Shown here: piece by piece, positions 27,874 to 48,105 of the stretch
Layout: each line of letters starts with the position of its first letter
How positions within the stretch are numbered: position 1 is the stretch's first letter
NCBI GenBank assembly: GCA_016699735.1
Contig: CP065008.1
Location: 404,032-468,031 of the forward strand
Source: Alphaproteobacteria bacterium
GTDB taxonomy: Bacteria; Pseudomonadota; Alphaproteobacteria; Micavibrionales; Micavibrionaceae
DNA length: 64,000 nucleotides
Direction of reading: 5' to 3'
Made by a program: the position numbers and the translations under genes
Notes under the pieces: model-generated
Seen by the model: only the letters and a program-made list of their open reading frames with translations
Told to the model about the DNA's origin: nothing
Database searches by the model: none

Positions 27874-28839
27874 ATGAATAAAGTTGTTTGCTGTATTCTG
27901 ACTGTCCTTTTGGCTTTCCTCGTTTCTGCTAGCTTTAGATATGCATACGCAGAACCGACATTAGAGTTAAGTCGTCAGGAAAAAATAAAGCGCTCCTTCG
28001 AAAAGTATCTTGAAAATTTTTTGTTAAAGAGCCTTATACCAGAGAGCAACGTCGCACCATCAGTTATTTCACATAGAGAATCCCACGATTCCGTGTATGA
28101 AGAGCTTCACAAAAGGCATCCACAACTGATCCCGCTTTTTACACTAAATAAAACACATGATTTGTACTCACTTTACAAATTATCAAACCCTCCGAAAGTG
28201 TTTCTGGGCTACCCTGAATACCTTCAGCCAAGATATGATGGAGAAGAAAAACAGGAGGGACGCAAGAAAGCATTTGAATATTCAAAGCTACTCAATGAGA
28301 AACTAAAGGATTTTGAGTGGCCAGAAAATTTTTCGGTCGTACTATCGCCCAAAGAGGCGAACATCTTCATCTTTCCTGTTGAAAAGAAAACATTCATCTA
28401 TGTCTCGGTACCCAGTCGTCTCTCAATACATTCCAAATCACGAGGCAACTATGAAAATTTATTCTTAAACATTAACGATACTTTCTACAACGCTACATCC
28501 TTCAAGTTAAACGATGAGGGATTAAGCGGAGAGTTCTTTACTACAGAGGAAAGAAAAATACTTGTCTCTTTCTGCCCAATAGACATGCAAAAGAGTGATC
28601 CTGAGATCAAAGAAAGCGTAGATCTATGCCTTATTAAATCACAGGGACTCCCCGGATTTAGCCGAATAATGCCCTTCCAGAAAGCTTATTATCGAGAATG
28701 GGGAGCGATCCTTAATAAATTTTCTGCCTGTATCTTTGATGAGGGCACGAGTTCTTTCACCGATATCGATTTCTCATCTGCTTTTAAAAAGTGCTTGAAA
28801 GAAAAGGATTATATAAATGCCGGTAAGCTTTTCGAGTGA
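27874..28839 (+). CDS. secreted hypothetical protein (321 aa)
   Basis: Signal peptide MNKVVCCILTVLLAFLVSASFRYAYA. AT-rich. Overlaps the RTX gene start by 23 nt. Confidence 0.5.
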   Translation: MNKVVCCILTVLLAFLVSASFRYAYAEPTLELSRQEKIKRSFEKYLENFLLKSLIPESNVAPSVISHRESHDSVYEELHKRHPQLIPLFTLNKTHDLYSLYKLSNPPKVFLGYPEYLQPRYDGEEKQEGRKKAFEYSKLLNEKLKDFEWPENFSVVLSPKEANIFIFPVEKKTFIYVSVPSRLSIHSKSRGNYENLFLNINDTFYNATSFKLNDEGLSGEFFTTEERKILVSFCPIDMQKSDPEIKESVDLCLIKSQGLPGFSRIMPFQKAYYREWGAILNKFSACIFDEGTSSFTDIDFSSAFKKCLKEKDYINAGKLFE

Positions 28840-31800: not shown

Positions 31801-34099
31801 AGCAGGGTTAAACCTGTCAAATATTACCGTTCAAAAGCGTGATACAGGCAGCCATTTCTCTACAACCAAATTCCTTGTAATCGAGGACGGTAATGGAAAT
31901 ACTCTTACGTTCAAAGGTCACTTTGACAATAATGCTTACAAGGCAGAGAACTTAAAGTTTAACGATGGCTCTATTATCAGCATCTCTAGCCTTGAAATCG
32001 ACTCTCATGGCTCAGGGGGCGATGACAGGCTTGATGGCATAGTGGCAGGTTCTGATCTCACTACTAACGATGTCATGTACGGTCATGGCGGCGCTGACCA
32101 GATTTACGCGGGCGCGGGCAACGATGTGTCCTATGGCGGCACGGGCAATGATTACATTTTCGATGATGCCGGGAACGACACCCTGTATGGTGAAGACGGG
32201 GATGACCAGCTCTATGGTTACTCCGGGAACGACACTCTTTACGGCGGCATAGGAACCGATATTTTGCGGGGCGATGACACGTTTGCCAGTTCTTCGATTA
32301 CTGGCAACGACTTCCTCTATGGTGGCGATGGCAACGACAATCTCTCCGGAGGTCGGGGCAATGACCTCCTCGACGGTGGCGCTGGTGATGATGTGCTGAG
32401 CGGGGATAATGACACCGATACAGTGGCCTACGCCTCTTCAACAGCAGGCGTGACCGTTTCGTTGGCTCTCACTTCAGCCCAGAACACAATCGGCGCCGGA
32501 ACCGATACCATCACCAATACCGAAAACCTCACCGGATCGGCTTTCAATGACGTTCTGACCGGCGATGCCAGCGCCAATACCCTGACAGGCAGTGACGGGA
32601 ACGATGTTCTGGAAGGTTTGGCCGGGAATGATACCCTCGATGGCGGGAATGGCAGTGATACGGCCAGCTACGCCAATGCGACCGCTGCTGTGACGGTCAA
32701 TCTGGCCACCACGACCGCCCAGAATACTGTGGGTGCAGGAACCGATACGCTCGTCAGTATCGAGAACGCAAAAGGCTCGGCCTTCAACGACACGCTGACC
32801 GGAAGCTCTGGCAGTAACGTCATTGAGGGCGGAGCGGGCAACGACACGCTCAATGGCGCGGCCGGTACGGATACGCTGAGCTATGTCTCGGTGGCTTCAG
32901 CGGTGACGGTCAATCTGGCCACGACTACGGTGCAGGCCACGGGCGGGGCCGGATCGGACACGGTCTCCAATTTCGAGAACCTGACAGGCTCGGCCTTTAA
33001 CGACACGTTGACGGGCAATACCGGAAACAACGTCATCGAAGGTGGCGCGGGCAATGATGCCATTAACGGCAGCACGGGAACGGATACGGCTTCATACGAA
33101 AATGCAACTGCCGCCGTCACGGTGAGCCTTGCCCTCACCACAGCTCAGAATACGCTCGGCGCAGGCACAGATACGCTCACAGCCATGGAGCATCTGCGCG
33201 GCTCGGCGTTCAACGATACCCTGACCGGAAGCTCGACGGACAACACCATAGAAGGCGGCGCCGGGGATGACACGATGAATGCGGGGTCCGGCTCCGACAC
33301 ACTCCTGTATGCAAGCGCGACCTCCGGCATTACTGTCAGTCTTGCTCTCACCACCGCGCAGAACACGGGCGGCGCGGGGACGGACACGATCTCGAACTTC
33401 GAGAAAATCACCGGATCGGCTTTCGCGGATGTTCTTACAGGAAATTCTGCGGCGAATACGTTGGATGGCGGATTGGGCGATGACATTCTGGACGGTGGCG
33501 CAGGCAACGACACGCTGAACGGCAACACCGGAACGGATACGGCCAGCTATGCTTCGGCAACAGCGGCCGTTACGGTCAGTCTGGCCCTCACCACGGCGCA
33601 GAATACGGTCGCCGCTGGATCGGACACCATCACAAACACCGAAAATCTGACGGGCTCGGGCTTCAACGACACGCTGACGGGCAATACAGGGATCAATATC
33701 CTGACCGGAGGGGCTGGGAACGATACTCTGCGAGGCGGCGCAGGCAATGACGCGCTCAAAGGCGGTCTGGGCACGGATACCCTCTACGGCGAGGCGGATG
33801 CCGATTTGTTTGTCTTTGAAGCGGCCTCAGCGTTCACAGCGCAGGATACAGTGGCGGATTTCTCGATCGCGCAGGGGGACAAGCTCAACATTGCCGACCT
33901 TCTGATCGGCTATACGGCTGGACAGAGCGCGATTGATGATTTTGTAACCTTCACCACCGCCGGAGCCAATACCAACTTCGCTGTAGACCGCGACGGAACC
34001 GGAACGACATACAGCGCCATTACGATTGCCAGCATCACAGGTGTTACTGGCCTTGATGCCGATACGCTTCTCAATAACGGAAACCTGATTGCGGTTTAA
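28817..34099 (+). CDS. RTX calcium-binding repeat protein with N-terminal HExxH zincin-like region and type I secretion C-terminal target domain
   Basis: LAHELVHVY. Many GGxGxD nonapeptides (GGSGNDILRGGSGNDIYIY, GGDGNDNLSGGRGNDLLDGGAGDD). C-terminus DADLFVF...GDKLNIADLL...NGNLIAV resembles a T1SS target domain. Confidence 0.85.
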   Translation: MPVSFSSDHPSVSNSDIRNATNNLINKSASLRRAIDALEKKGVQIDIKVTDNPDAEGAEITEIGNDDSHFEIKIPKQVFDGEKYTDPDNQQHDTTFERNLAHELVHVYKDVMNKTDSEQIAEDGADKIMKEAYQEKENQYDSNPPDSTSGTPKFHDTSPPDPNDYEWPGQPIYTPPADLQPIGFVPTQSGGSGVGMGGGLDPLVFDLDGSGTIDLISVQNSGIHFDFWGDGFAEATGWVAAADGMLAWDIDESGLIDSVAELFGSNFPISYVTEADWVQFRDFENGFARLAALDSNLDGEISSSDAIWTELRIWQDVNQDGVSQSSELLTLSQSGISSIDITNYVLDSFQGLSSGGFTRIIEGNTVTHSGSFELVGGGTRELVDVWFDANMDNTVYSSEYIYEGDVLFLPMLRGYGQIADLYVSMSIDNQAGGLFDLIQNFSVARTFSDIFVDFSSVRDEVEEIILRWGSIDSISFEEQKYGVFGLMQEFLFLKKLSGTDSDYQGVWFDGTPYLPHTVDGIEAIHDTWSSLIDSYTVRLAFQSGAEALFENVVAYDPDRDLFNGDLSLSQAAIAALETGATGHADIQGFWHFVANFINEVKGISQLTTNEVTWLSDAVDDSSSSALSWSGIVATLSEQTITGTSGSETLNGTRWDDNINALAGNNIVNGGDGNDSLQSSTGSDILNGGSGNDILRGGSGNDIYIYDSGHDVIAEDFNNFTTSTDTIQFGAGIAVGDVTLHIAQMIANVSTWHIFLEIAGRGTLTIDTPSGGSGPFTKIVDTLVFADSTTFNIATMDVTFHGQVGDDYINTANWATTGDQFVYGYGGDDRIDLIGTQPIQVDAGEGKDLIYGSVNNDTFVVSPGGDQFVGGGGTNTILLPSGYSAGDVTYYRYEDISTPYSSPKTWDALITVAGLGSITVLRQFEGDTDSIIQTLKFSDGSTVNLLTQEYVTFGTSGDDTYDNVGSLWANKNDVYLFGQGDDIVQEDTGTDTILFAAGLNLSNITVQKRDTGSHFSTTKFLVIEDGNGNTLTFKGHFDNNAYKAENLKFNDGSIISISSLEIDSHGSGGDDRLDGIVAGSDLTTNDVMYGHGGADQIYAGAGNDVSYGGTGNDYIFDDAGNDTLYGEDGDDQLYGYSGNDTLYGGIGTDILRGDDTFASSSITGNDFLYGGDGNDNLSGGRGNDLLDGGAGDDVLSGDNDTDTVAYASSTAGVTVSLALTSAQNTIGAGTDTITNTENLTGSAFNDVLTGDASANTLTGSDGNDVLEGLAGNDTLDGGNGSDTASYANATAAVTVNLATTTAQNTVGAGTDTLVSIENAKGSAFNDTLTGSSGSNVIEGGAGNDTLNGAAGTDTLSYVSVASAVTVNLATTTVQATGGAGSDTVSNFENLTGSAFNDTLTGNTGNNVIEGGAGNDAINGSTGTDTASYENATAAVTVSLALTTAQNTLGAGTDTLTAMEHLRGSAFNDTLTGSSTDNTIEGGAGDDTMNAGSGSDTLLYASATSGITVSLALTTAQNTGGAGTDTISNFEKITGSAFADVLTGNSAANTLDGGLGDDILDGGAGNDTLNGNTGTDTASYASATAAVTVSLALTTAQNTVAAGSDTITNTENLTGSGFNDTLTGNTGINILTGGAGNDTLRGGAGNDALKGGLGTDTLYGEADADLFVFEAASAFTAQDTVADFSIAQGDKLNIADLLIGYTAGQSAIDDFVTFTTAGANTNFAVDRDGTGTTYSAITIASITGVTGLDADTLLNNGNLIAV
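32411..33790 (+). repeat. about six tandem coding repeats of 70-80 aa (210-240 bp) within the RTX gene
   Basis: Reiterated unit DTxSYAxATAAVTVxLAxTTAQNTxGAGTDTxxxxENLxGSAFNDTLTGxxxxNxxxGGAGNDTLxG. Confidence 0.8.
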
Positions 34100-34163: not shown

Positions 34164-35828
34164 TTATGCGGTAATGCCTTTCACTGAGCTATTGAGCGTG
34201 AAAAACCTGTGGTAAAAACTTTGATTGGGGGCAGGATAGGGGGCAAGACAATAAATATGAATTAATAATATGTTTAACAACAAATACTTAATAATATGGT
34301 TCGATCCCGATAGGGCCACCATTTCTGTCCTCCCCAGTGACAACTCCTGTAAAAGCCTGACTGGCAGCGAGGTTTCAGCGGTTCGAAAACCCGTTTTCTT
34401 GTCATAGGCCAGTTTGCTGGTAAAGGTGAGTTTTATCACGGCGCGTTTGTGTTCGAGGTTGCCTTTAGCCCATATTTTCTGCGGGTTTGAGAGGAAAGAG
34501 AACGCGGTTCGAAAGGTTTCATCGAACGGAGCCAAAGGGCGACCGCATTGCGCGATTTTCTCATCCAACCTGATCTTCTCCTCTTCCAGAATTCTTATCT
34601 GGTTCTCGTAGGCGGCGATCAGTGTAGGGTTTTCATTCTGTGCAATCCTCTGAAAAAAATGAGTGGATTTGCGATCAAGCTGGAGTGCTTGCTGGCGCAA
34701 TGTTTCCGTGTCCGTTTTGACGGCCTCGCGTTTGGCATTCCAGAGGTCCGTAAACATGGCGGCAGCCATAAAGAACACATGCTCCGAAGGCTTCAGATCG
34801 GCCAGGAGGCTCTCAAAATCGCCTTCGAGCTGTTCACGGCGGATAGATTTCCCATCGCGCTCACACCCATTTGTGCGGCACAGGTAATAGGGATACTTGC
34901 CATTACGTCCCGTGGACCAGCAAGCGGCCATCGGCCTTTCGCAGCAGGCGCATATGACAAATCCTCTTAGCGGGAAGTCCGCATTGATATTCAGCTTAGC
35001 AGGGGCTTTGGCTTGCCCGTGGAGGCGGTCTTGTATCTTGCGGTAGGTCTCGTAGCTGATAAGGGGTTCGTGCCTGCCCTTAACCATCGACAGTCCCCAT
35101 TCGGGTTTGTCGATGTAGCCTGCATAAAAAACGCGATCCAGCATATCCCTGACCTGCGAGAAATAGATTTTACCTTTGCGGTCGCGCTGAAAATGCGGCG
35201 TACCCATAAAGAAATGCCGGAGTTCGGAAATCGTTTCAAACCGCCCGCAGGCATACCCTTCCAGCCCCTCGGCAATGATGGAGGCCAGAGGCTCATCCCG
35301 CACTAGAATTTTCCCGCCGGAGCCTTTTTCCTTAGCGTAGATATATCCGGGGACCGGATAAAAGGTCCAATACCCGTTTTGCATTCTGGACATCATCCGG
35401 TTTTTGACCTGTTCAGCATTTTTCTCGCGCTGGTGCGCGGCCACAGACGCCAGCAGATGCTCGACCAAGCGGCTGTCAGAATCCTCGCCAAACTCAATCG
35501 AAGGTGATTCCAGCTTGCCGCCTGCATCGGTAATCGAAGTCCTTAAACGAATATGGGTTTCAATATCTCTGGCCAGTCTGGAGATGTCGTCTATAATAAC
35601 GACAAGATGATCGTTTTTATGTTTCTTGAGATAACCCAGCATCGCTTTCATATTCGGACGATCCAAGAGCTTGCCTGACAACCCTTCATCCCGAAACACG
35701 TCAATAACCTCATAGTTCTTGTGCTTGGCATAATCACGGCATCGTGTTTCTTGCGAGGCAAGGCCGTTTCCTTCGGTCACCTGCTTCACCGAAGAAACCC
35801 GCGCATAGATGACAGCTTTTTGAATCAT
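34164..35828 (-). CDS. large serine recombinase; annotated 3' end runs through the att repeat into island 1
   Basis: Resolvase N-terminus KAVIYARVSSVKQ...DDISRLARD. Recombinase domain. Zn-ribbon CACCERPMAAC...YYLCRTNGC. Coiled-coil. Confidence 0.85.
   Translation of the reverse strand: MIQKAVIYARVSSVKQVTEGNGLASQETRCRDYAKHKNYEVIDVFRDEGLSGKLLDRPNMKAMLGYLKKHKNDHLVVIIDDISRLARDIETHIRLRTSITDAGGKLESPSIEFGEDSDSRLVEHLLASVAAHQREKNAEQVKNRMMSRMQNGYWTFYPVPGYIYAKEKGSGGKILVRDEPLASIIAEGLEGYACGRFETISELRHFFMGTPHFQRDRKGKIYFSQVRDMLDRVFYAGYIDKPEWGLSMVKGRHEPLISYETYRKIQDRLHGQAKAPAKLNINADFPLRGFVICACCERPMAACWSTGRNGKYPYYLCRTNGCERDGKSIRREQLEGDFESLLADLKPSEHVFFMAAAMFTDLWNAKREAVKTDTETLRQQALQLDRKSTHFFQRIAQNENPTLIAAYENQIRILEEEKIRLDEKIAQCGRPLAPFDETFRTAFSFLSNPQKIWAKGNLEHKRAVIKLTFTSKLAYDKKTGFRTAETSLPVRLLQELSLGRTEMVALSGSNHIIKYLLLNILLIHIYCLAPYPAPNQSFYHRFFTLNSSVKGITA
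34227..34247 (+). promoter_or_regulatory. two copies of GGGGGCA(G/A)G near the island-1 right end
   Basis: GGGGGCAGG at 34227-34235 and GGGGGCAAG at 34239-34247. Same orientation as the three copies at 16426-16467. Confidence 0.45.
34298..34321 (+). repeat. attR-like copy of the tRNA-Ala 3' end (junction between island 1 and island 2)
   Basis: 24 nt identical to 16278-16302 apart from one deleted T. Confidence 0.8.
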
Positions 35829-37591: not shown

Positions 37592-38176
37592 ATGAGTGCG
37601 CTTGAGCAAGTTAAACATCATCTTCGGGAGGGCGAAGTTTATCGCCGCGCTGACCTTGAACAATGGTCAAATGCCGTTGATCGTCACCTGCACCAGTTAC
37701 AAGAAGAAGGGGTGCTGGTGAAGCTCTCTGGCGGCATGTATTATCGCCCGAAGATGACCGCGTTTGGCGCAACCCCTGCCGATGATGAAACGCTGGTTGA
37801 GGCGTTTCTCAAGGATCATCGTTTCCTGCTGACCTCCCCAAATCTTTATAACGCTTTGGGGCTTGGCATGACGCAGCTTTATAATGAAACGGTAGTTTAT
37901 AATCACAAGCGGCATGGCCAGTTTAAACTAGGCGGCAGGACATTCCGCTTTGCGATGAAACCGCATTTTCCGTCCAAACCAACCCCTGAATTCTTGCTGG
38001 TGGATGTTGTAAATAACCTTGGCCAGCTTGCCGAAGACAGGGAGCAGGTATTGAAGCAGGTTCAAAAAAAGGCGCTTTCTATGGAGAGGATCATCCTTGC
38101 CAAGGCCGTGCGCGACTATGGCGGCGCACGGGCGAAGAAAGTATTTGCCAAACTTCTTTCCACAGATACGATGTAA
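37592..38176 (+). CDS. AbiEi-antitoxin-like / DUF6088-like winged-helix protein
   Basis: EVYRRADLEQWSNAVDRHLHQLQEEGVLVKLSGGMYYRPK fits the AbiEi_4-type pattern (G-l-x-rl-x-rG-x-Y). No AbiEii nucleotidyltransferase partner is present. Confidence 0.5.
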   Translation: MSALEQVKHHLREGEVYRRADLEQWSNAVDRHLHQLQEEGVLVKLSGGMYYRPKMTAFGATPADDETLVEAFLKDHRFLLTSPNLYNALGLGMTQLYNETVVYNHKRHGQFKLGGRTFRFAMKPHFPSKPTPEFLLVDVVNNLGQLAEDREQVLKQVQKKALSMERIILAKAVRDYGGARAKKVFAKLLSTDTM

Positions 38177-38250: not shown

Positions 38251-40941
38251 GTGAATATAGCAGAAATCGGAATAGAACTTGGTGATCTGGTCAATGAAAA
38301 TTTTGATCCGGCTACATTCATCTATCGTTTTCTGGAAATATACAAAGCCCCCAAAAGCACACTTGATAAATTTCGCAAAGGCACACAAAACAAGGCCGAT
38401 ATAAACGGAGATTTGCTTTGGCAGAGAAAGATATATTTCCGCCAAATACAAAGCGGAGATACAGCCAAAGCACTTGATGAAATCAAAGCCCTTAAAGTTA
38501 TAAAAACCTACAAGCCCAGATTGATATTGGTTACTGACGGCAAGGAAGTATCCGCCCTCGATTTGAAAACAGATGATTCTCTCCATTGTGATTTTATAAA
38601 ATTGAGTGACCGCTTCGGTTTTTTCTTATCTGTAGCCGGAATAGATGTATATAAGGCAGTAGAGGAAAACTGCGCAGATATTAAAGCCGCAGGACTTTTA
38701 GCAAAATTCCATGACGAAATCATGCAGGTGAATGCTGGATGGCATACGCCTGAAAAACGCCATGCCCTCAACCAATTTATGATGCGAGTTTTGTTTTGCT
38801 TATTTTCAGAGGATACAGGCAGTTTCAAAGAAGATTTATTCGTACAAACTGTATCAGATTACGGCGGTGATAACGGCGAATATATCCAAGACCTTCTGAC
38901 ACAGCTTTTTGAGATCATGAACACCTCGAAAGAGAAGCGGGGCAATATTTCAACGCATATATCCGCTTTTCCCTATGTTAATGGCGGCCTGTTTGCCGAT
39001 AAAACTGAAGTTCCGAAGTTCAGCAAACGCGCTAAACGCCTCCTGATTGAAGCGGCAAGGCTGGATTGGCGCGAAATTAACCCCGATATTTTTGGCTCGA
39101 TGATCCAAGCGGTCGTGGATACCGATATGCGCGGTGATCTGGGAATGCACTATACGTCCGTTCCCAATATCATGAAGGTTCTGCATCCGCTTTTTCTCAT
39201 GTCTTTGGAAGAAGAATTTGAGGAAGCGCAGGGACGGCGTGATGAACGCGCACGGCTTCAAAAGCTGCTTACTCGCATTTCAAAAATCAGGGTATTTGAT
39301 CCAGCCTGTGGCTCTGGAAACTTCCTGATTATAGCCTATCGAGAGCTTAGAAAGCTCGAAATGCGAATATTCCAGCGTGAGGATGATCTGGACGGCGGCA
39401 CGATCCGAAACCGTTATGAAACCCATGTTAAAATCTCAAATTTCTATGGCATAGAGCTTGCCGATTTTGCCGCAGAAACCGCCAAATTATCGCTCTGGAT
39501 TGCCGAATATCAGATGAATCAGAGATTCAAAAATCTATTCGGAGAAATGCCAGACCCTTTTCCATTGAATGAAGGCGGTCATATCACCAGTGGCAATGCC
39601 CTGCGAGAAAACTGGGAAGAAATTTGCCCACCCGTAAATGATCCAGAAATTGAAACCTATATCGTAGGAAACCCGCCATATTTAGGAAGCACTTTCCAAA
39701 ATCCAGAACAGAAGCAGGATATGGCGTCGGTATTTTCCCCCATAACCAAAAACTATAAAAACCTAGACTATGTAACGGCTTGGTATCTAAAAGGAGCGCA
39801 CTACTGCACCAAACATCAGGCAGAATGCGCTTTTGTAGCGACCAATTCGATTTGTCAGGGTGAACAAGTAGCTCTGCTCTGGCCTTTGATATTCAAAATG
39901 GGTTTAGAAATAGGTTTTGCACACCAATCTTTCAAATGGAGTAATCTGGCAACAAATAACGCAGGTGTTACCTGCTCAATTATTGGAATTAGAAAAAATT
40001 GTGACCAAAAAAAAATACTATTTCATGATGAAATTGCCCGTAATGTAAAAAACATTGGGGCATATCTCATTGAAATGCCTAATGTTATAGTTCAAAAATC
40101 ATCAAAGCCGCTTAACAGCTTGCCTAACATGGATTACGGCAATAAACCTGTAGATGGTGGTAATCTCATTCTATCCGCTGAAGAAAAAAACGAGCTTATT
40201 GGTAAATACCCTCAAGCAGAAAAATTGATACGACGTTTCTATGGATCACAAGAGCTTATCAAGGGTATTGAGAGGTGGTGTTTGTGGATTCAAAATGATG
40301 ATCTACCTTTCGCAAACAGCATACCGCCTATAGCACAGCGCATTAAAAATGTTCATGCTCTTAGATTAAAAAGCAAAGATAGTGGCGCAAATAAAATGGC
40401 AGAGCGCGCACACCAATTTAGAGAGATGAATATTGCTCAGGAACACTACCTGATTATTCCCAGTGTTTCCTCGGAAAATAGACCTTATATACCCGTGGAC
40501 TTATCAGATTCAAAATCTTGTATTAGTAATCTGGCTTTTGGAATATATGACTGCCCTATATATGTATTTTCGATAGTTGCCTCAAAACTGCATAACATAT
40601 GGATAAAAGCCGTTTGCGGCCAGCTAGAAACACGAGTGCGCTATTCAAATACCCTCGGTTACAACACATTTCCGCTCCCAGCTTTGACTAAAGAAGATAA
40701 AGAAGAGCTGGAAAACCATGCTTGGAATATCTTAGGAATACGGCAATCCTACACTGGCAAAACAATCGCATGGCTTTACGATCCCAAAACAACGCCAGCC
40801 GACCTACTCGCCGCGCACAAATCTCTCGATGATTGCCTTGAAAAAATCTACATAGGCCGCCCTTTCAAAGACGATACCGAACGCCTCGAACACTTGTTCA
40901 AAATGTATGAAAAAATGACCGCAAAAGGGGGTAAAAAATGA
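38251..40941 (+). CDS. MmeI-family (type IIL/IIG-like) N6-adenine DNA methyltransferase homologue, full length, nuclease motif apparently degenerate
   Basis: Collinear with my recollection of MmeI throughout: FMMRVLFCLFSEDTGSF, AFPYVNGGLF, LGMHYTSVPNI, motif I FDPACGSGNFLI, motif IV VGNPPYLG, ATNSICQGEQVALLWP, YGNKPVDGGNL, SSENRPYIP. GTG start. Confidence 0.9.
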   Translation: MNIAEIGIELGDLVNENFDPATFIYRFLEIYKAPKSTLDKFRKGTQNKADINGDLLWQRKIYFRQIQSGDTAKALDEIKALKVIKTYKPRLILVTDGKEVSALDLKTDDSLHCDFIKLSDRFGFFLSVAGIDVYKAVEENCADIKAAGLLAKFHDEIMQVNAGWHTPEKRHALNQFMMRVLFCLFSEDTGSFKEDLFVQTVSDYGGDNGEYIQDLLTQLFEIMNTSKEKRGNISTHISAFPYVNGGLFADKTEVPKFSKRAKRLLIEAARLDWREINPDIFGSMIQAVVDTDMRGDLGMHYTSVPNIMKVLHPLFLMSLEEEFEEAQGRRDERARLQKLLTRISKIRVFDPACGSGNFLIIAYRELRKLEMRIFQREDDLDGGTIRNRYETHVKISNFYGIELADFAAETAKLSLWIAEYQMNQRFKNLFGEMPDPFPLNEGGHITSGNALRENWEEICPPVNDPEIETYIVGNPPYLGSTFQNPEQKQDMASVFSPITKNYKNLDYVTAWYLKGAHYCTKHQAECAFVATNSICQGEQVALLWPLIFKMGLEIGFAHQSFKWSNLATNNAGVTCSIIGIRKNCDQKKILFHDEIARNVKNIGAYLIEMPNVIVQKSSKPLNSLPNMDYGNKPVDGGNLILSAEEKNELIGKYPQAEKLIRRFYGSQELIKGIERWCLWIQNDDLPFANSIPPIAQRIKNVHALRLKSKDSGANKMAERAHQFREMNIAQEHYLIIPSVSSENRPYIPVDLSDSKSCISNLAFGIYDCPIYVFSIVASKLHNIWIKAVCGQLETRVRYSNTLGYNTFPLPALTKEDKEELENHAWNILGIRQSYTGKTIAWLYDPKTTPADLLAAHKSLDDCLEKIYIGRPFKDDTERLEHLFKMYEKMTAKGGKK

Positions 40942-41678
40942 TTTTTGATAATATTGATTATTCAAAACTCCCCTCAAGCGGAGAAGAAGCATTCATTGAA
41001 TTTGAAAGACAGTTACGACATGAATACAACGGCACAGTTGAATACGACAGAAATGTCAGAGAAAATACAGACATGAACGGTAATTATATAGGCTCTTATG
41101 CCCCTGAAAGAGCCTATCTAAACTCAATCATGGCTTTTATTGATGAATATAATCTTGATCTTGACATAGCAGACTGTGGTAGCCTCAGGGGTTACGAATT
41201 TTATGAAAAATTTGAAGAACTAAAAGCAAAAATTGGCTATGCCGTAACACGATTTAGCATCAGAAAACATAGGATTGGCGAAGGAACAGTTGGGACGCTT
41301 ATATACATAGAAAGCTCGTATAAAGCTGAAATTGGATCGCTTTTGGAAAAGATTAGAAAAATTGTGAATCAAGAAGTTAAAGATGTTAAGAAGAGAGATC
41401 ATATATTTTCAAAAATCGCCTCTTTGCAATCAGAAGTGGATAGGGATCAAACAACTGTTGATGCGCTGTTTTCTCGAATGCTTGATTTATCTTCGACAAT
41501 AGGCGAAAGCGCAGAAAATTTAGAACCTTTAATAAATCTTCTGGAAAGAATAAAAAAAGTGTTTTGGGATAAATCTAATAAAGTTGAATTGCTGCCGCAA
41601 AAAGAGCGGCAAAAGCTAATCACAAAAGAAAATAAATCCTCAGAAATAGATGAATTTGAGGATGAAATACCATTTTAG
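40938..41678 (+). CDS. hypothetical protein (246 aa), translationally coupled to the methyltransferase
   Basis: ATGA overlap with the MTase stop. No P-loop or nuclease motif recognised. C-terminal half looks helical/coiled with an acidic tail. Confidence 0.55.
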   Translation: MIFDNIDYSKLPSSGEEAFIEFERQLRHEYNGTVEYDRNVRENTDMNGNYIGSYAPERAYLNSIMAFIDEYNLDLDIADCGSLRGYEFYEKFEELKAKIGYAVTRFSIRKHRIGEGTVGTLIYIESSYKAEIGSLLEKIRKIVNQEVKDVKKRDHIFSKIASLQSEVDRDQTTVDALFSRMLDLSSTIGESAENLEPLINLLERIKKVFWDKSNKVELLPQKERQKLITKENKSSEIDEFEDEIPF

Positions 41679-41692: not shown

Positions 41693-43669
41693 ATGCCAAA
41701 TTTTGTTGAGGTAGCATACGACCAAACAGGGGAAAGCCAGAAGCAAAATGCTATGGGCATGAGAGCCATGCAAGCCAGAGCCTTTGCAGAGCGCGGGTCT
41801 CAATATCTTCTGGTAAAAGCACCGCCAGCATCGGGCAAATCCCGTGCTTTGATGTTTATTGGTCTCGACAAACTCGAAAACCAAGGCATTCAAAAGGTTA
41901 TAGTAGCTGTGCCGGAACGCTCAATCGGTTCATCCTTCAAATCAACAGAGCTTACAAAATACGGGTTTTCTCGTGATTGGAGCGTGGATGAGCAATGGAA
42001 TCTTTGTACTGCCGGAGGGGATGCAGGGAAGGTTAGCAAATTTCAGTCCTTCATGGAAAGTGACGCCAAAATTCTGGTTTGCACCCATGCCACGTTGCGC
42101 TTTGCCTTTGATAAAATCGGGGTAGAACCTTTTGCCAAATGCCTGCTGGCGATTGATGAGTTTCACCATGCCTCTGCGGATGCCGATAACCGCCTTGGCG
42201 AGGTCGTGCGTAAACTTCTTGATGATGGCCGCGCCCATATTGTCGCTATGACAGGAAGCTATTTCAGAGGCGATAGCCTGCCTGTCCTGCGGCCTGAGGA
42301 TGAAGAGAAATTCACCCGTGTAAGCTATACCTACTATGAGCAGCTTAACGGCTATACCCATCTTAAAACCCTTGGAATTGGTTATCATTTCTATCGGGGA
42401 AATTACCTCGATGCGATTATGGAGGTTCTTGACCCTAAGAAAACCATCATTCACATCCCGAACGTCAACTCTGCTGAAAGCACCAGTGAAAAATACGTCG
42501 AAGTTGACAGGATTATTGACCATCTGGGCGAATGGCAGGAAACCTGCCCTGACACAGGTTTGCACATCATAAAGCACAAATGCGGTAAATTACTGCGTGT
42601 TGCCGATCTGGTCGAAGATGACGCAAAGACCAGAAACCGTGTCATGGAAACCTTGCGAAATGTGTCCAGTGCGGATGATCTGGACATTATCATAGCCCTT
42701 GGCATGGCGAAAGAAGGTTTTGACTGGACGTACTGTGAACACGCTCTTACGATTGGTTATCGTGGATCATTGACAGAAATTATCCAGATTATTGGCCGCT
42801 CCACCCGTGATTGCCCTAACAAAGCCCACGCCCAGTTTACCAATCTGATTGCAGAGCCGGATACCAGCCAAGAAAATGTAACCTCTGCTGTAAACGATAT
42901 GCTCAAAGCCATAGCTGCTTCGCTGCTTATGGAGCAGGTTCTAGCCCCCAATTTTAAGTTCAAGACCCACCCAACAGGCGATAATCTCGACGGCTCTGTG
43001 AAAGTCGTAGATATTGATTACACTCAGAGCGAAACAACAGTTGCGATCAAGGGTTTCGCAGAACCTAGCACGCCCCGTGTTAAGCAAATCGTACAAAACG
43101 ATCTAGTTGATTTAATGGCAAAAATTATGCAAGACGAACGTGTTATCAGGGCAGCGATTAACCCTGATGAGATTGCACCTGAAGTAGTTTCACAGGTTTA
43201 CATCCCTAAGGTTATTGAGAAAAAATATCCAGAATTATCAGAGCAAGAAGTTGAAGAAATTAGGCAGCACGTCATGGCAAATGCTGTATTCAAAACCTCG
43301 GCAGAGGGCGGAATGCCGGAGCTAAACAATAACCTAATAAAGTTGGTTAATAAATTCGTGAATGTTCGGGATTTGGATGTTGATCTTATTGACTCTATAA
43401 ACCCGTTCCAGCTTGCCTACGAGGTTATGTCAAAATCTATTGATGCCGATATTCTAAAGGTAATTCATGGTGCAATTACCGCTACAAAAATCAAAATGAC
43501 GGAGGAAGAGGCTACCTCATTATATCCGCGTATTCGTGCTTTCAAGGATTCACATGGGCGAGAGCCAAGTATGGTTTCTTCCGACCCTATGGAACGACGA
43601 ATGGCAGAAGCCCTTGAATGGATACGCAACAAGAAACGTGAAAAATTGCGTTCTCAGCAATCGGCATAG
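41693..43669 (+). CDS. SF2 (DEAD/DEAH, ResIII-like) helicase
   Basis: Motif I KAPPASGKSRAL, motif II LLAIDEFHHA, motif III MTGS, motif VI QIIGRSTR. Starts 15 nt after the preceding stop. Confidence 0.85.
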   Translation: MPNFVEVAYDQTGESQKQNAMGMRAMQARAFAERGSQYLLVKAPPASGKSRALMFIGLDKLENQGIQKVIVAVPERSIGSSFKSTELTKYGFSRDWSVDEQWNLCTAGGDAGKVSKFQSFMESDAKILVCTHATLRFAFDKIGVEPFAKCLLAIDEFHHASADADNRLGEVVRKLLDDGRAHIVAMTGSYFRGDSLPVLRPEDEEKFTRVSYTYYEQLNGYTHLKTLGIGYHFYRGNYLDAIMEVLDPKKTIIHIPNVNSAESTSEKYVEVDRIIDHLGEWQETCPDTGLHIIKHKCGKLLRVADLVEDDAKTRNRVMETLRNVSSADDLDIIIALGMAKEGFDWTYCEHALTIGYRGSLTEIIQIIGRSTRDCPNKAHAQFTNLIAEPDTSQENVTSAVNDMLKAIAASLLMEQVLAPNFKFKTHPTGDNLDGSVKVVDIDYTQSETTVAIKGFAEPSTPRVKQIVQNDLVDLMAKIMQDERVIRAAINPDEIAPEVVSQVYIPKVIEKKYPELSEQEVEEIRQHVMANAVFKTSAEGGMPELNNNLIKLVNKFVNVRDLDVDLIDSINPFQLAYEVMSKSIDADILKVIHGAITATKIKMTEEEATSLYPRIRAFKDSHGREPSMVSSDPMERRMAEALEWIRNKKREKLRSQQSA

Positions 43670-43680: not shown

Positions 43681-44862
43681 ATGCCAAGAATGACTTTAGA
43701 TGATATTCTTGCCCTAGATGATGATCTTTTGGACGTGAAGCTCTCTAGCAACCATGCCGGAACAGAAGATCAAAGAATCCTTAGTGTATTTGAAGAAATT
43801 AATTTATTCATAGACAAGCATAAGCGAAAACCCGCAGAAGGCAAAAATCCTTCTGTTTTCGAGCGTAGCCTTAAGATCAAACTTTCCGGCATTCTGAATG
43901 ATGCAAATAGGCATGACTTTTTACTCGAACATGACAGGCACGGGCTGTTACCTTCTGTTCCAGTGAAGTCTCCTAAAACATTGGATGAAATCCTTGATCT
44001 GGACGATGATCTTTTAACCACCCCGAAAGACGATATTTTTAATTTGGTTCATGTGCTATCTGCGGCTGATAGACCAGATATGATTTCTGACCGCCGCCCA
44101 TGTCTTGATTTTGAGAGCTTTAAGCCTCTTTTCGAAAAATGTTCCCAAGAAATCAATACTGGTAAGCGCAAAACGCTTAAATTTTCAAAAGAGCAGGAAA
44201 TCAATGCTGGTGAATTTTTCATACTGAACGGTGTCATGGTTTATGTTGCCGAAGTGGGGGAAACACACATTCGAAATGGCAAAAAAAATGCTCGCTTAAG
44301 ACTAATATTTGACAATGGTATGGAGGGAAAGAACCTTCTTCGATCATTAGCTACAGAACTGTATAAGGATAAAAACGGGCGCCGCGTATCTAATCCAGAA
44401 GTTGGCGGCCTTTTTGATTCTCAGCCAGAAGAAGGGGACTTACAAACGGGCATGATCTATGTGGTTAGAAGCCTGTCACCCGATCCAGAAATCAAGAAAT
44501 ACGATGGAATGCTCCATAAAATCGGATTCACCTCTGGAAAAATGGAGATTCGTATTCAAAACGCCAAGGATGATCCAACATTTCTTATGGCGGCCGTTCA
44601 TCCTGTCGCAACATATATTCTCTACAACATTGACAAAGTTAAGCTGGAATATCTTCTACATAGCTTCTTCGCAGAAGCACGGCTTGATATTGATATAGCC
44701 GACCGTTTCGGGAAGAAAATCAAACCTAGAGAATGGTTTTTATTAAAATATGAAACGATTGCCGAAGCTGTATCCAGACTGAAAGACGGTTCAATCGTAG
44801 ATTATAAGTTTGATTTAGATACGGGAAATTTAATCCTACGGGAACAAGTAAATGCAAAATGA
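43681..44862 (+). CDS. T5orf172 / GIY-YIG-superfamily-like domain protein
   Basis: C-terminal GMIYVVRSL...LHKIGFTSGKMEIRIQNA...EYLLHSFFAEARL...REWFLL matches the T5orf172 pattern as I recall it. Duplicated N-terminal motif LD(D/E)IL-LDDDLL. Confidence 0.65.
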   Translation: MPRMTLDDILALDDDLLDVKLSSNHAGTEDQRILSVFEEINLFIDKHKRKPAEGKNPSVFERSLKIKLSGILNDANRHDFLLEHDRHGLLPSVPVKSPKTLDEILDLDDDLLTTPKDDIFNLVHVLSAADRPDMISDRRPCLDFESFKPLFEKCSQEINTGKRKTLKFSKEQEINAGEFFILNGVMVYVAEVGETHIRNGKKNARLRLIFDNGMEGKNLLRSLATELYKDKNGRRVSNPEVGGLFDSQPEEGDLQTGMIYVVRSLSPDPEIKKYDGMLHKIGFTSGKMEIRIQNAKDDPTFLMAAVHPVATYILYNIDKVKLEYLLHSFFAEARLDIDIADRFGKKIKPREWFLLKYETIAEAVSRLKDGSIVDYKFDLDTGNLILREQVNAK

Positions 44863-44913
44863 TACCTCAAAAATTACTTGCTTAAACAGCTATTTGCGGA
44901 AATGATATGTCTT

Positions 44914-45840
44914 ATGAGTAATAGCGCAAAAGACTGGAAATCATTTGAAGAGCAAATAGGCATCCTCCAATCAAGGGGGATGATTATTGATGACAAATCG
45001 GAAGCATTAATATTTTTAGAACGTGTTGGCTATTATAGGCTGAGTGGCTATTGGTATCCCTTTCGTAAATTTGATAATGGTGCGCGGCAGGACGACTTTA
45101 TCCCTGAAACACGTTTTTCTGATATTATCTCATTATATGATTTTGATCGCAGGCTTCGCTTGCTTGCCCTTGATGCGGTAGAGCGTATTGAACTATCTGT
45201 TCAGGTTGATATTGCTTATCTTCTAGGAAAACGCGATCCTTTTGCTCATGAAAGTCCGAATGAACTTCACGGTAATTTTTCAAGACCCAGAAGAAGCGGA
45301 CAATCAGAATATGACCTGTGGATTGAGGATTACAATCGGCTTGTAGATCGTTCTAAGCGCAAACCCTTTGTAGCCCATAATTTGAAAAAATATGGCAAAT
45401 TACCTATTTGGGTAGCTATTGAAATATTTGATTTTGGGGCAATGTCAAAGCTCTATGCGGGCATGAAACATCAAGACAAAATCAATATAGAAAAGAAATT
45501 TGGTCTTAACGCGGGAACAGAATTTGAAACATGGCTTAGAGGCTTTAACTTTATCCGCAATACTGCTGCACATCATAGCAGGCTTTGGAATTGCAATGTC
45601 TTGGAAAGGGCTATAATTCCGCGCTCAAAATTAAAGCTATACCCCTTAAACAATTCAAGGCCGTTTCTATATTTTTGCATGATGCAAAGTGTTTTAAAGG
45701 TGATCTGTCCTGATGCCAGATGGGGTGAAAGATTTATTGAATTGCTGAATACATTTCCAGAGGTTAAAAACCAAGCAATCAAATTGGAAGATATGGGATT
45801 TATAGAAGGCGCAAAAGAATGGCCACTTTGGAAAACATGA
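44914..45840 (+). CDS. Abi_2 (AbiD/AbiF-like) abortive-infection family protein
   Basis: KSFEEQIGILQSRGMIIDD...FLERVGYYRLSGYWYPFR and FIRNTAAHHSRLWN are hallmark Abi_2 motifs. ATG at 44914 preferred over TTG at 44878. Confidence 0.8.
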   Translation: MSNSAKDWKSFEEQIGILQSRGMIIDDKSEALIFLERVGYYRLSGYWYPFRKFDNGARQDDFIPETRFSDIISLYDFDRRLRLLALDAVERIELSVQVDIAYLLGKRDPFAHESPNELHGNFSRPRRSGQSEYDLWIEDYNRLVDRSKRKPFVAHNLKKYGKLPIWVAIEIFDFGAMSKLYAGMKHQDKINIEKKFGLNAGTEFETWLRGFNFIRNTAAHHSRLWNCNVLERAIIPRSKLKLYPLNNSRPFLYFCMMQSVLKVICPDARWGERFIELLNTFPEVKNQAIKLEDMGFIEGAKEWPLWKT

Positions 45841-46042: not shown

Positions 46043-47098
46043 TTATTTTGGTAAATCAACACTTACAATGTCTTCAAGAATTAACCTAATAGGTTGATTA
46101 GAGGCATCTCTAACAAAATAAAACGACGCTCCAATCCGCTCTGAACGTAATGCCTCAGATATAATAGCAAGTTTTTTCTTTTTAATACTCATTGGAACTT
46201 GAAACGCGATAGGTTTAATAAACTGCACTTCATTTCTAAATTTACCCCAGCCAGTATCCTTATCGTAAGCTCTAACAATCCCTTCGATATAGGTTGGAGT
46301 TTTGTCGATATTCACCTCCCCTAGGTTTTCTAAAGATTGCCTATCGAATACGCATACTTTCTGATCCGATTGTCCTAATGAAATTGAAAGAGAATTTGCT
46401 GATCCTCTTAAAGGAAGCGCTAATTCTTGGCTATGTTTTCTAAATAAGTCTGACAACTGTACTAATTGTTCATCACTAATTGATGAAAGAACGGACTTAA
46501 TTGGCTCAGAAGTTTTTTCAAATTCTATTTCGGCAAGCAATTCCTGTTGTATATAATCTTTCTCAAATTCTGTTTCAATAGCATTAGGTTTAAGATGGTT
46601 TACTTGTGGTAAGCTATAACCAGCAATAACCTCCAAAGCTTGCTGGGCAGTCGCTTCCTTAGCTCCTAAAATATCTGCCATTATTTGCAATCTTTTAGTC
46701 TCCTCAGATGATTGAAGTGTTCTTTCTCTTTCGCGGGAAAGCTCTATTTGGGCAAGCTCCATAGCTAACTCTTTACCTTTTGAAGGAGGCTTTAATTTAT
46801 TCATGATGTAAGAGAAAAGAGAAGTGAGAGGGACTTTTAAAGTGCATTGAGCTATGTTGGGAATTTTTTCAAGTATTACAGAAAGTTCCCAAGAACCTTC
46901 CTTGGCCGCCGAAACTCTAATATCTGCTTCAATTTTTTTTGAAATTCGATCTAATACTATGCCTTTTTGCCTAAAGTGTTCGATCTTATAAATCAATTTT
47001 GCAGCCGCGTATTGAAACCTAGCAGCCTCATAAAAGTTAAGTTCGTGACTGTCTGCTATTCCACCACTAAAAGAAAAAACTATTGCATCATCTTGCAT
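46043..47098 (-). CDS. hypothetical protein (351 aa), downstream partner of the P63C gene
   Basis: Starts 12 nt after the P63C stop on the same strand. AT-rich. No motif recognised. Confidence 0.5.
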   Translation of the reverse strand: MQDDAIVFSFSGGIADSHELNFYEAARFQYAAAKLIYKIEHFRQKGIVLDRISKKIEADIRVSAAKEGSWELSVILEKIPNIAQCTLKVPLTSLFSYIMNKLKPPSKGKELAMELAQIELSRERERTLQSSEETKRLQIMADILGAKEATAQQALEVIAGYSLPQVNHLKPNAIETEFEKDYIQQELLAEIEFEKTSEPIKSVLSSISDEQLVQLSDLFRKHSQELALPLRGSANSLSISLGQSDQKVCVFDRQSLENLGEVNIDKTPTYIEGIVRAYDKDTGWGKFRNEVQFIKPIAFQVPMSIKKKKLAIISEALRSERIGASFYFVRDASNQPIRLILEDIVSVDLPK

Positions 47099-47109
47099 TC
47101 AAAAACCTC

Positions 47110-48105
47110 TTAATCTGTAAAATCAAGCTCAATCTGATCGCCCATTTGCGGAAATGCTCGCTTAAATGATCTCTCAAAATCAATCTTGCTTTTAGATGCG
47201 TTACCAATACCTATCACTTGCCATAGATGTGCTCTGAAGGTATCCAAGCCTAATTCCTGACTCAAATATTGATGTAGCTTATGTTTGCGCCCACCATTAA
47301 CATAAACCGTTGGGGTTTTTTTATCCAACTCTTCTAGTATCGCCCCATTGCTGCCAGCTAACGGAAAATAAATATACTTCCTAATAAATTTTCCAAAAAA
47401 CGCGGGGTGTTGAAATGACTTCGGATTTTCTCGTTTTAAACCGTATATCCTATAAATCATGTCAAAAAACTGATCTGGAAACTCCTTCGCCCATTCTCGA
47501 CACTCATGAGCAATAAAATCACGAAAAAGCTCTCGATATTCTTCTTTCCTCTTATCTGCAATATAGCCAGTAGCCTCATCAATAAGAGCAACTATTCCTA
47601 ATTTAGCTGCAGACCGGATAATAATTTGCGCGTTTCTTGCAAGAAATTTTTGGGAATCTGCCAATTTCCCTTCATTATCCGCCTGAATGATTGTGTCACA
47701 AACCTCAATTAAGGTGGCAGCTTCATATCCATGTGTTAAAATCCCGGATGTGTTTTTGAACTTAATAGGATTATCAATTTTTTCTTGAAGCGGATCAGTT
47801 ATTTTTTGAGAAATGCCCTTTCTTGTCATTGTCCGCAAAAAGGCATTTCCGCCTTGAGATTTCAGCCCAAGAGCATTTGCCATTTCTTTCTTATGAAACA
47901 AGCGCCTCTTATCATTAAGAACATAACAATCAAGTTCCACATCACCAATGTATAGCTCTCCTTGGTAACTTGCTGTGGGCAATACATTGGGGTCAATCTC
48001 TTTTGACCACCTTGCAGTAGCAGCTTGTGTGGCAATCTCTTGACGCTGCTCTGGCGAGAGTTTTTGCGCTCTCGCTTTTCCTCCTAAACTTTGACTGCTT
48101 TGCAA
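47110..48105 (-). CDS. P63C-domain protein
   Basis: N-terminus GGKARAQKLSPEQRQEIATQAATARW, then ASYQGELYIGDVELDCYVLNDKRRLF and the downstream region, fit my recollection of P63C-domain proteins. Confidence 0.6.
   Translation of the reverse strand: MQSSQSLGGKARAQKLSPEQRQEIATQAATARWSKEIDPNVLPTASYQGELYIGDVELDCYVLNDKRRLFHKKEMANALGLKSQGGNAFLRTMTRKGISQKITDPLQEKIDNPIKFKNTSGILTHGYEAATLIEVCDTIIQADNEGKLADSQKFLARNAQIIIRSAAKLGIVALIDEATGYIADKRKEEYRELFRDFIAHECREWAKEFPDQFFDMIYRIYGLKRENPKSFQHPAFFGKFIRKYIYFPLAGSNGAILEELDKKTPTVYVNGGRKHKLHQYLSQELGLDTFRAHLWQVIGIGNASKSKIDFERSFKRAFPQMGDQIELDFTD

What the first reader, a model, noticed from the sequence alone, without database searches (positions are those of the whole stretch)
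38404..38457. MmeI-type endonuclease triad reads D...Q-x-Q instead of D...E-x-K
Seen: residues 52-69 are NGDLLWQRKIYFRQIQSG. Knowledge (from my recollection of the MmeI sequence and its D70-X9-E80-X-K82 PD-ExK site): the equivalent MmeI segment is GFVDLFWPGILLIEMKSRG. With a 1-residue gap, D54 aligns with D70, Q65 with E80 and Q67 with K82. The rest of the protein is collinear with MmeI to the C-terminus. Inference: cleavage activity is lost while the methyltransferase and TRD are retained, which fits dependence on the downstream genes.
Basis: partly seen in the sequence, partly recalled or inferred. Interest (0 to 1): 0.6.

Follow-up and report, generated by a model that had tools for sequence, protein, structure and literature searches.

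The report
MmeI-like methylase lacking its nuclease site
This gene encodes an MmeI-like DNA methylase that lacks the family's built-in DNA-cutting site and sits next to a separate helicase and nuclease, a gene trio (YeeA/DnmA-YeeB-YeeC) first described in 2009, so the finding is correct but not new.

Summary
ORF 38251-40941 (+, 896 aa) is a full-length MmeI-family protein, and residues 52-69 read exactly as reported. D54 aligns with MmeI D70, R64 (not Q65) with E80, and I66 (not Q67) with K82. Q65 and Q67 are not conserved in relatives.

All 120 closest homologues lack E-x-K. In 80 genome loci the split is absolute. All 29 no-ExK loci with enough flank carry a DEAD helicase plus a T5orf172/GIY-YIG gene downstream. 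None of 31 D-E-K loci does. A tree built without the N-domain separates the two types on one branch.

This is the "second group" of MmeI homologues of Morgan et al. 2009 (YeeA/DnmA-YeeB-YeeC). Its methylases showed no endonuclease activity when purified, and Vibrio homologues protect against phage. The N-domain is as conserved as the methylase core, so it looks repurposed and not decayed.

The 246-aa gene between methylase and helicase is separable cargo in a variable slot. Verdict: an ordinary new member of a known kind whose biochemistry is still unsolved.

The parts
38251..40941 (+). YeeA/DnmA-type MmeI-family N6-adenine DNA methyltransferase and specificity protein, 896 aa, GTG start (MNIAEI, as in homologues)
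   Evidence: Pfam MmeI_N, _hel, _Mtase, _TRD and _C all hit. PADLOC REase_MTase_IIG scores 1004.7 bits. MmeI 5HR4 matches at E=3e-180. It falls in the no-ExK clade.
38251..38721 (+). N-terminal domain (residues 1-157), homologous to the MmeI PD-ExK nuclease domain but without the catalytic E-x-K
   Evidence: MmeI_N scores 71 bits. hhalign against D-E-K-type N-domains gives 98.3% probability, E=2.6e-14. The AF2 model has pLDDT 88.6 and lacks the first strand of the D-E-K type. Mean pairwise identity among 117 close homologues is 61%, against 63% for the MTase core and 44% for the TRD.
38404..38457 (+). The reported stretch, residues 52-69. D54 (38410-38412) aligns with MmeI D70, R64 (38440-38442) with E80, and I66 (38446-38448) with K82.
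   Evidence: The clade consensus is GD(L/V)LWxRKxYFRxA.
39238..40023 (+). Gamma-class N6-adenine methyltransferase domain (residues 330-591) with motif I DPACGSG (350-356) and motif IV NPPY (474-477, bases 39670-39681)
   Evidence: MmeI_Mtase scores 363.6 bits. These columns are invariant in alignment A1.
40075..40686 (+). Target recognition domain (residues 609-812); recognition sequence not determined
   Evidence: MmeI_TRD scores 276.8 bits. It is the least conserved domain, 44% identity among close homologues.
40938..41678 (+). 246-aa protein of unknown function; its ATG overlaps the methyltransferase stop (ATGA). It is an accessory cargo gene in the variable methylase-helicase slot and not a core component.
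   Evidence: No Pfam or NCBIfam family. It is absent from all 80 related loci. It is not similar to the genes in the same slot elsewhere. Its own family has 124 homologues. They occur in the slot (L086, L087) and also apart from any YeeABC genes (L088, L089).
41693..43669 (+). YeeB-like SF2 DEAD/DExH helicase, 658 aa
   Evidence: Pfam DEAD, ResIII and Helicase_C hit. It is 47-74% identical to the gene downstream of every no-ExK methylase. Motifs I (PPASGKSRA), II (DEFHH) and VI (QIIGRxTRD) are at least 90% conserved across 38 orthologues and present here.
43681..44862 (+). YeeC-like T5orf172/MUG113 (GIY-YIG superfamily) protein, 393 aa; the only candidate nuclease of the system
   Evidence: Pfam MUG113 and T5orf172 hit. 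It is syntenic in 34 loci. GxIYV, hKIG, R and PrEWF are conserved. Public records annotate this position as 'GIY-YIG nuclease family protein'.

Best explanation
The gene encodes the methyltransferase and specificity subunit of a YeeA(DnmA)-YeeB-YeeC-type split restriction-like system, carried on a mobilizable genomic island. Shown here: the protein is a full-length MmeI relative. Its N-terminal domain is homologous to the MmeI nuclease domain, but arginine and isoleucine stand where the catalytic Glu and Lys should be. Its methyltransferase motifs are intact. It belongs to a deep clade in which every member with enough flanking DNA is followed by a DEAD helicase and a T5orf172/GIY-YIG protein, and both are intact here. 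Taken from the literature: purified members of this clade methylate one strand of an asymmetric 6-bp site and do not cut DNA, and the Vibrio crassostreae homologues protect against some phages. Inferred: the methylase marks host DNA and reads unmethylated sites. The conserved, catalytically dead N-domain serves as the contact or signalling module for the helicase and the GIY-YIG nuclease, which carry out ATP-dependent restriction in a type-I-like way. In this sub-clade the retained acidic residue 54 probably pairs with the basic residue 64 instead of binding metal. The 246-aa gene between methylase and helicase is an independent passenger.
For: The missing E-x-K is shown by three alignment methods. 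All 118 close homologues with an N-terminus lack it. Linkage is 29/29 no-ExK loci with helicase plus T5orf172 against 0/31 D-E-K loci. One branch (SH-aLRT 100) separates the two types on a tree of residues 171-end. The N-domain is conserved like the MTase core, 61% against 63%, with the TRD at 44%. An acidic residue at 54 goes with a basic residue at 64 in 31 of 34 representatives, against 11 of 31 when 54 is not acidic. Helicase and GIY-YIG-type motifs are intact. Literature: Morgan 2009 PMC2731913, Nye 2020 PMC7261158, Fernandez 2023 PMC9973331, Piel 2021 bioRxiv 10.1101/2021.05.05.442762. Distribution among relatives is patchy, 6 of 31 genomes. The region has low GC and lies between a serine recombinase and a relaxase.
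Against: No biochemical mechanism has been shown for any member of this system. In B. subtilis, dnmA-yeeB-yeeC gave no protection against three phages and no restriction of plasmid uptake. The residue 54-64 covariation is not corrected for shared ancestry. B. subtilis YeeA itself was not in my alignments. The link to it rests on Morgan's description and on a source annotation of a 54%-identical homologue as 'yeeA'.
Confidence: 0.8

Rival explanations
1. The methylase is functionally an orphan (epigenetic) methyltransferase, and the downstream helicase and nuclease genes are a non-working relic, as proposed for B. subtilis DnmA.
For: In B. subtilis, deleting yeeB or yeeC did not change infection by three phages, and deleting dnmA did not change plasmid uptake.
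Against: All three genes are intact here, with helicase and GIY-YIG-type motifs conserved. They are tightly packed, with a 4-nt overlap and 14- and 11-nt spacers. They sit on a recently acquired mobile island among other defence-type genes. The trio is kept together in 29 of 29 loci across many phyla. The Vibrio yeeAB genes do protect. The B. subtilis YeeB and YeeC are reported to lack C-terminal stretches.
Confidence: 0.1
2. The N-domain is still a nuclease that uses a rewired active site, for example D54 with K60, or D96/E99, or D104-x-K106.
For: In the close sub-clade D/E54, K60, R64, D96, E/D99, D104 and K106 are 88-100% conserved. PD-(D/E)xK nucleases are known to move catalytic residues (general knowledge).
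Against: In the larger part of the no-ExK clade, residue 54 is Gly, 60 is Asn and 64 is Ala or Lys. D96 and D104 are also conserved in enzymes that have the canonical triad, so they do not replace it. In the model K60 sits in the hairpin turn, and D96 and D104 lie at opposite ends of their hairpin (inference). Foldseek finds the type IIL nuclease domain of DrdV for the D-E-K-type model but not for this one. Purified YeeA and MslORFHP did not cut.
Confidence: 0.05
3. The methylase is the PglX or DrmMI component of a BREX or DISARM system.
For: There are weak local hits of the methyltransferase core to PglX and DrmMI models.
Against: PglX models score 16-27 bits against cut-offs of 400-900. The best DrmMI model scores 115 bits, against 1005 bits for the MmeI-type IIG model. 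No PglZ, BrxC, BrxL, DrmA, DrmB or DrmC family appears among the neighbouring genes.
Confidence: 0.02

Closest known systems
DnmA(YeeA)-YeeB-YeeC of Bacillus subtilis and yeeA-yeeB of Vibrio crassostreae 7F1_18: the 'second group' of MmeI homologues (Morgan et al. 2009, PMC2731913; Nye 2020, PMC7261158; Fernandez 2023, PMC9973331; Piel 2021 preprint)
   Same: It is an MmeI-like methylase without PD-ExK but similar to MmeI over the rest. It is followed in the same order and orientation by a DEAD helicase and a T5orf172/GIY-YIG protein, and it lies in a low-GC mobile region.
   Different: The sequence is only distantly related (closest database relatives 71%, genome-collection relatives at most 57%). 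An extra 246-aa gene sits between methylase and helicase. This sub-clade keeps an acidic residue at the D70 position, paired with Arg at the E80 position. The recognition site is unknown.
MmeI (type IIL restriction-modification enzyme, PDB 5HR4) and relatives such as NmeAIII and DrdV
   Same: Same five-domain order (N-domain, helical spacer, gamma-class m6A methyltransferase, TRD, C-terminal bundle). About 35-40% identity over residues 14-891, with E=3e-180.
   Different: The catalytic E80 and K82 equivalents are R64 and I66. The predicted N-domain lacks the first beta-strand. MmeI-type genes have no conserved neighbours, whereas this type always has the helicase and GIY-YIG genes.
Type I restriction-modification systems (HsdM/HsdS/HsdR)
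   Same: Likely logic: a methylase and specificity module separate from an ATP-dependent SF2 motor and nuclease. Unrelated accessory defence genes are inserted inside the operon.
   Different: Specificity and methylation are in one chain, with no HsdS. Motor and nuclease are two proteins, and the nuclease is GIY-YIG-type and not PD-ExK. Only one strand of an asymmetric site would be methylated. This is a likeness in how it works and not membership.

Membership tests
MmeI family proper (type IIL bifunctional restriction-modification enzymes) | Collinear five-domain architecture similar to MmeI over the whole length | tested here: met
   Pfam MmeI_N, hel, Mtase, TRD and C all hit. 5HR4 matches at E=3e-180 over residues 14-891.
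MmeI family proper (type IIL bifunctional restriction-modification enzymes) | PD-ExK catalytic residues aligned with MmeI D70, E80 and K82 | tested here: not met
   D54, R64 and I66 stand at these positions in three alignments. No conserved E-x-K occurs elsewhere in the domain.
MmeI family proper (type IIL bifunctional restriction-modification enzymes) | Self-contained: no consistently linked partner genes | tested here: not met
   Helicase plus T5orf172 lie downstream here and in 29/29 no-ExK loci, and in 0/31 D-E-K loci.
MmeI family proper (type IIL bifunctional restriction-modification enzymes) | Cuts DNA about 20/18 nt from the site | not testable with these tools
   This needs purified protein. 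Purified relatives of the no-ExK group did not cut.
YeeA(DnmA)-YeeB-YeeC module ('second group' of MmeI homologues) | MmeI-like over the whole length but without the PD-ExK motif in the N-terminal domain | tested here: met
YeeA(DnmA)-YeeB-YeeC module ('second group' of MmeI homologues) | DEAD-type SF2 helicase gene next to it | tested here: met
   41693-43669: Pfam DEAD, ResIII and Helicase_C hit. It is 47-74% identical to the syntenic helicases. Motifs are intact.
YeeA(DnmA)-YeeB-YeeC module ('second group' of MmeI homologues) | GIY-YIG/T5orf172 protein gene after the helicase | tested here: met
   43681-44862: Pfam MUG113 and T5orf172 hit. It is syntenic in related loci.
YeeA(DnmA)-YeeB-YeeC module ('second group' of MmeI homologues) | Groups with other no-ExK members on a tree built without the N-domain | tested here: met
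   One branch, SH-aLRT 100, separates 38 no-ExK from 40 D-E-K sequences. B. subtilis YeeA itself was not in the set.
YeeA(DnmA)-YeeB-YeeC module ('second group' of MmeI homologues) | m6A methylation of one strand of an asymmetric site, and no endonuclease activity of the methylase alone | not testable with these tools
   Published for DnmA (GACGAG) and for YeeA and MslORFHP. Here only the intact NPPY and DPACGSG motifs could be checked.
BREX PglX | Scores over the curated cut-off of a PglX model and is linked to PglZ/BrxC genes | tested here: not met
   NCBIfam PglX models score 16-27 bits against cut-offs of 400-900. No such neighbours.
DISARM DrmMI | Best match to DrmMI models and linkage to DrmA/DrmB/DrmC | tested here: not met
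   DrmMI scores 114.8 bits over residues 471-834 only, against 1004.7 bits for the MmeI-type IIG model. No DrmA, DrmB or DrmC nearby.

The most novel reading that the evidence does not exclude
The dead nuclease domain may not be a relic. It could be the conserved docking and licensing module through which the site-bound methylase recruits or activates the YeeB helicase and the YeeC GIY-YIG nuclease. In that case a charge swap at the old metal site (Asp/Glu54 paired with Arg/Lys64) would hold the fold without metal. Alongside this, the methylase-helicase junction would be a dedicated exchange slot for accessory defence genes, here the 246-aa protein, comparable to the PrrC/RhuM/Abi slots inside type I operons.
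Probability: 0.4. Interest if true: 0.45.

Novelty: new member of a known kind. Interest (0 to 1): 0.2.

Why it matters
The missing E-x-K and the dependence on neighbouring genes were published in 2009, so this instance teaches little by itself. The class still matters. It is widespread across at least nine phyla and on plasmids, it is annotated only as 'DNA methyltransferase / DEAD helicase / GIY-YIG nuclease', and annotation tools class it as type IIG. It protected against phage in one Vibrio strain, and it has no worked-out mechanism. This copy is intact and compact and lies on a mobile island, so it would be a reasonable candidate for solving how a methylase with a dead nuclease domain directs a separate motor and nuclease.

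Tried and rejected
- **Plasmid DNA search.** Megablast of the operon against plasmids found nothing.
- **Fold search of the N-domain.** Foldseek of the N-domain model against the PDB gave no match at E<=0.001. The best were anticodon-binding-type folds at TM about 0.25. The D-E-K-type control did find the DrdV nuclease domain. The negative result therefore reflects real divergence, but it cannot by itself prove a changed fold.
This cannot be done on the MmeI crystal, because the 5HR4 model lacks residues 1-155.
- **Other family libraries.** NCBIfam has no model for this family or for the 246-aa and T5orf172 proteins. PDB sequence search gave nothing useful for the helicase (weak DHX58 match) or for YeeC.
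- **The 246-aa gene as a core subunit.** I rejected this. It is absent from all 80 related loci, unlike the genes in the same slot elsewhere, and found away from YeeABC genes.
- **The upstream AbiEi-like gene as part of the system.** I rejected this too. It has no homologue beside any related locus, and upstream genes vary.
- **A relocated E-x-K.** Four [DE]xK tripeptides exist, but none is on the right strand or conserved across the clade.
Full report
**The sequence.**
- The + strand ORF 38251-40941 starts with GTG and reads MNIAEI..., the same N-terminus as its homologues. It encodes 896 residues.
- All five Pfam domains of MmeI are found in order: MmeI_N 2-157, helical spacer 171-248, MTase 330-591, TRD 609-812, C 815-891.
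- The PADLOC 'type IIG' model built on this family scores 1005 bits end to end.
- The only solved relative is MmeI itself (5HR4, E=3e-180, residues 14-891 on 23-904).
- The methyltransferase motifs DPACGSG (350-356) and NPPY (474-477) are present and fall in invariant columns of a 30-sequence family alignment.

**The motif.**
- MmeI's catalytic residues are D70, E80 and K82, and mutating any one of them abolishes cutting (Callahan 2016, PMC4833311).
- HMMER aligns DLLWQRKIYFRQIQSG without a gap to MmeI's DLFWPGILLIEMKSRG.
- A MAFFT alignment with about 125 family representatives gives the same register. So does a profile-profile alignment of 32 no-ExK N-domains against 35 D-E-K N-domains (98.3% probability, E=2.6e-14, 140 columns).
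- In that register D54 aligns with D70, R64 with E80 and I66 with K82.
- Those two glutamines are peculiar to this protein. Among 117 close homologues position 65 is mostly P, T, V or A and position 67 mostly E, A or P.
- Four other [DE]xK tripeptides occur in residues 1-170, against 2.7 expected from composition. They lie in helices, in a loop or at a strand end in the model. None is kept across the no-ExK group, and the Asp residues involved (D96, D104) are also conserved in enzymes that have the canonical triad.

**It is a clade and not a local decay.**
- The 120 best database homologues (54-71% identity) all show the consensus GD(L/V)LWxRKxYFRxA wherever an N-terminus is present.
- An exhaustive search of cluster representatives returned both kinds of protein. 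One kind has D...(V/I/L)E.K and the other does not.
- A scan of one genome per species returned 80 loci.
- Among loci with more than 5 kb of downstream DNA, 29 of 29 without E-x-K have homologues of this window's helicase and T5orf172 protein just downstream in the same order. 0 of 31 with D-E-K have either.
- A maximum-likelihood tree of residues 171 to the end, which excludes the N-domain, separates the 38 no-ExK from the 40 D-E-K sequences on a single branch with SH-aLRT 100.
- The no-ExK side includes Pseudomonadota, Bacteroidota, Bacillota, Actinomycetota, Campylobacterota, Chlamydiota, Verrucomicrobiota, Planctomycetota and Saccharimonadota.

**It is already described.**
- Morgan et al. 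2009 (PMC2731913) split MmeI homologues into a group with PD-ExK and a second group without it.
[quoted passage not shown] - The authors speculated that the N-domain had become a module that interacts with the separate helicase and endonuclease, in a type-I-like arrangement with single-strand modification.
- YeeA was later renamed DnmA and shown to be necessary and sufficient for m6A at GACGAG (PMC7261158).
- In B. subtilis the trio gave no protection against three phages or plasmid uptake and was called a relic (PMC9973331).
- In Vibrio crassostreae 7F1_18, inactivating yeeAB removed resistance to one phage group (bioRxiv 10.1101/2021.05.05.442762).
- I found no paper giving a mechanism.
- Public annotation of a plasmid example reads 'DNA methyltransferase / DEAD/DEAH box helicase family protein / GIY-YIG nuclease family protein'.

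**What the N-domain looks like.**
- An AlphaFold2 model of residues 1-173 with 32 aligned N-domains is confident (pLDDT 88.6). It gives three helices, a beta-hairpin (55-57, 61-65), two helices, three strands (91-95, 99-104, 109-114) and then helices.
- The same procedure on a D-E-K-type N-domain (Limnohabitans locus L059, 35 sequences, pLDDT 84.6) gives the same order, plus one extra strand (49-55) before the hairpin.
- Foldseek finds the nuclease domain of the type IIL enzyme DrdV for the D-E-K model (7lvv_D, E=6e-6, TM 0.48-0.56). It finds nothing significant for this protein's model.
- The domain is therefore homologous but remodelled.
- Among 117 close homologues the N-domain is 61% identical on average. 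The methyltransferase core is 63% and the TRD 44%. This argues for a retained function and not decay.
- In this sub-clade D/E54, W57, K60, R64, P89, R90, T95, D96, G97 and E/D99 are nearly fixed.
- In the larger sub-clade the same positions read G54, N60 and A/K64, so no alternative catalytic set is shared.
- An acidic residue at 54 goes with a basic one at 64 in 31 of 34 representatives, against 11 of 31 when 54 is not acidic. This is not corrected for ancestry. I read it as a salt bridge taking the place of the metal site. That is inference.

**The partners.**
- The helicase (41693-43669) has Pfam DEAD, ResIII and Helicase_C matches. It keeps motifs I (PPASGKSRA), II (DEFHH) and VI (QIIGRxTRD), which are at least 90% conserved in 38 orthologues.
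- The T5orf172/MUG113 protein (43681-44862) keeps the GxIYV, KIG, Arg and PrEWF elements.
- The genes are packed: a 4-nt overlap, then 14-nt and 11-nt spacers. No convincing terminator lies between them, and a promoter-like site lies at 38145-38172.

**The 246-aa gene.**
- This gene (40938-41678) is absent from all 80 related loci.
- In 15 of them other genes fill the methylase-helicase gap of 0.8-2.7 kb. They are unrelated to it and mostly unrelated to each other.
- In closer relatives the slot holds different 252-aa and 260-aa proteins, a Schlafen/AlbA_2-ATPase gene, or nothing.
- The 246-aa protein has its own family of 124 homologues. They occur in the slot (L086, L087) but also alone beside a reverse transcriptase gene or after a small HTH gene (L088, L089).
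- It is therefore a passenger, and the slot is variable.

**Setting.**
- The genome is 2.74 Mb in one contig, and this is its only MmeI-type methyltransferase.
- Only 6 of 31 related genomes have any homologue, none above 48% identity.
- GC falls from about 0.56 to about 0.40 across the region.
- The operon lies between a serine recombinase (34164-35828, - strand) and a relaxase (48280-49545, - strand), next to a second island at tRNA-Ala.
- It is not a BREX or DISARM methylase. PglX models score 16-27 bits against cut-offs of 400-900, DrmMI models score far below the MmeI-type model, and no partner genes of those systems are nearby.

**Verdict.** The interpretation matches the published account. 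This is a new, intact member of the known YeeA(DnmA)-YeeB-YeeC kind. Notes from earlier follow-ups on other genomes reached the same classification. I read them after reaching mine.

Noticed in passing
window 40938-41678 (+); L086:6479-7219, L087:7001-7732, L088:7001-7720, L089:7001-7732: The 246-aa protein has no Pfam family. It belongs to a family of at least 124 proteins of about 240-250 aa. They are found inside YeeA-YeeB slots, and also alone next to a reverse-transcriptase gene or directly after a small HTH_3 gene. It may be an independent defence or toxin-like module.
   Followed up: partly
L004, L009, L011-L014, L016, L017, L020, L024, L026-L028, L032, L034 (between methylase and helicase); L082:10694-13110; L084:10679-11461: The methylase-helicase junction of this system is a variable slot. 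About half of the loci carry 0.8-2.7 kb of unrelated inserted genes there: Schlafen/AlbA_2-ATPase, roughly 330-aa and 340-aa families, and roughly 250-aa proteins.
   Followed up: partly
window 37592-38176 (+): An AbiEi-type (DUF6088) winged-helix gene lies 74 nt upstream of the methylase (PADLOC AbiEi 290 bits). No AbiEii toxin gene exists anywhere in the genome. It is an orphan antitoxin-like regulator and is not conserved beside related methylases.
   Followed up: partly
window 44878-45840 (+): An AbiD/Abi_2 abortive-infection gene directly follows the T5orf172 gene. It is not present in related loci, so it is a separate defence gene.
   Followed up: partly
window 46043-48105 (-): A two-gene pair, a P63C-domain protein and a DUF7946 protein, lies between the Abi_2 gene and the relaxase. 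Its function is unknown.
   Followed up: no
window 16227-34099: A first island at tRNA-Ala(GGC) carries a tyrosine integrase, a Toprim protein and an AAA_25 ATPase. It also carries a 1511-aa protein with no Pfam match (23123-27658) and a 1760-aa RTX-repeat protein (28817-34099).
   Followed up: no
window 38410-38442 (residues 54 and 64); alignments: Across no-ExK methylases an acidic residue at the old Asp position co-occurs with Arg or Lys at the old catalytic Glu position (D-R or E-K). Lineages with Gly at the first position mostly have Ala at the second.
   Followed up: partly
L086:12209-13975; L084:14611-17208: In close relatives other defence-type genes sit directly after the T5orf172 gene, a SIR2_2 protein in L086 and an AAA_13/SMC-like ATPase in L084. 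These operons seem to collect passengers at their 3' end too.
   Followed up: no
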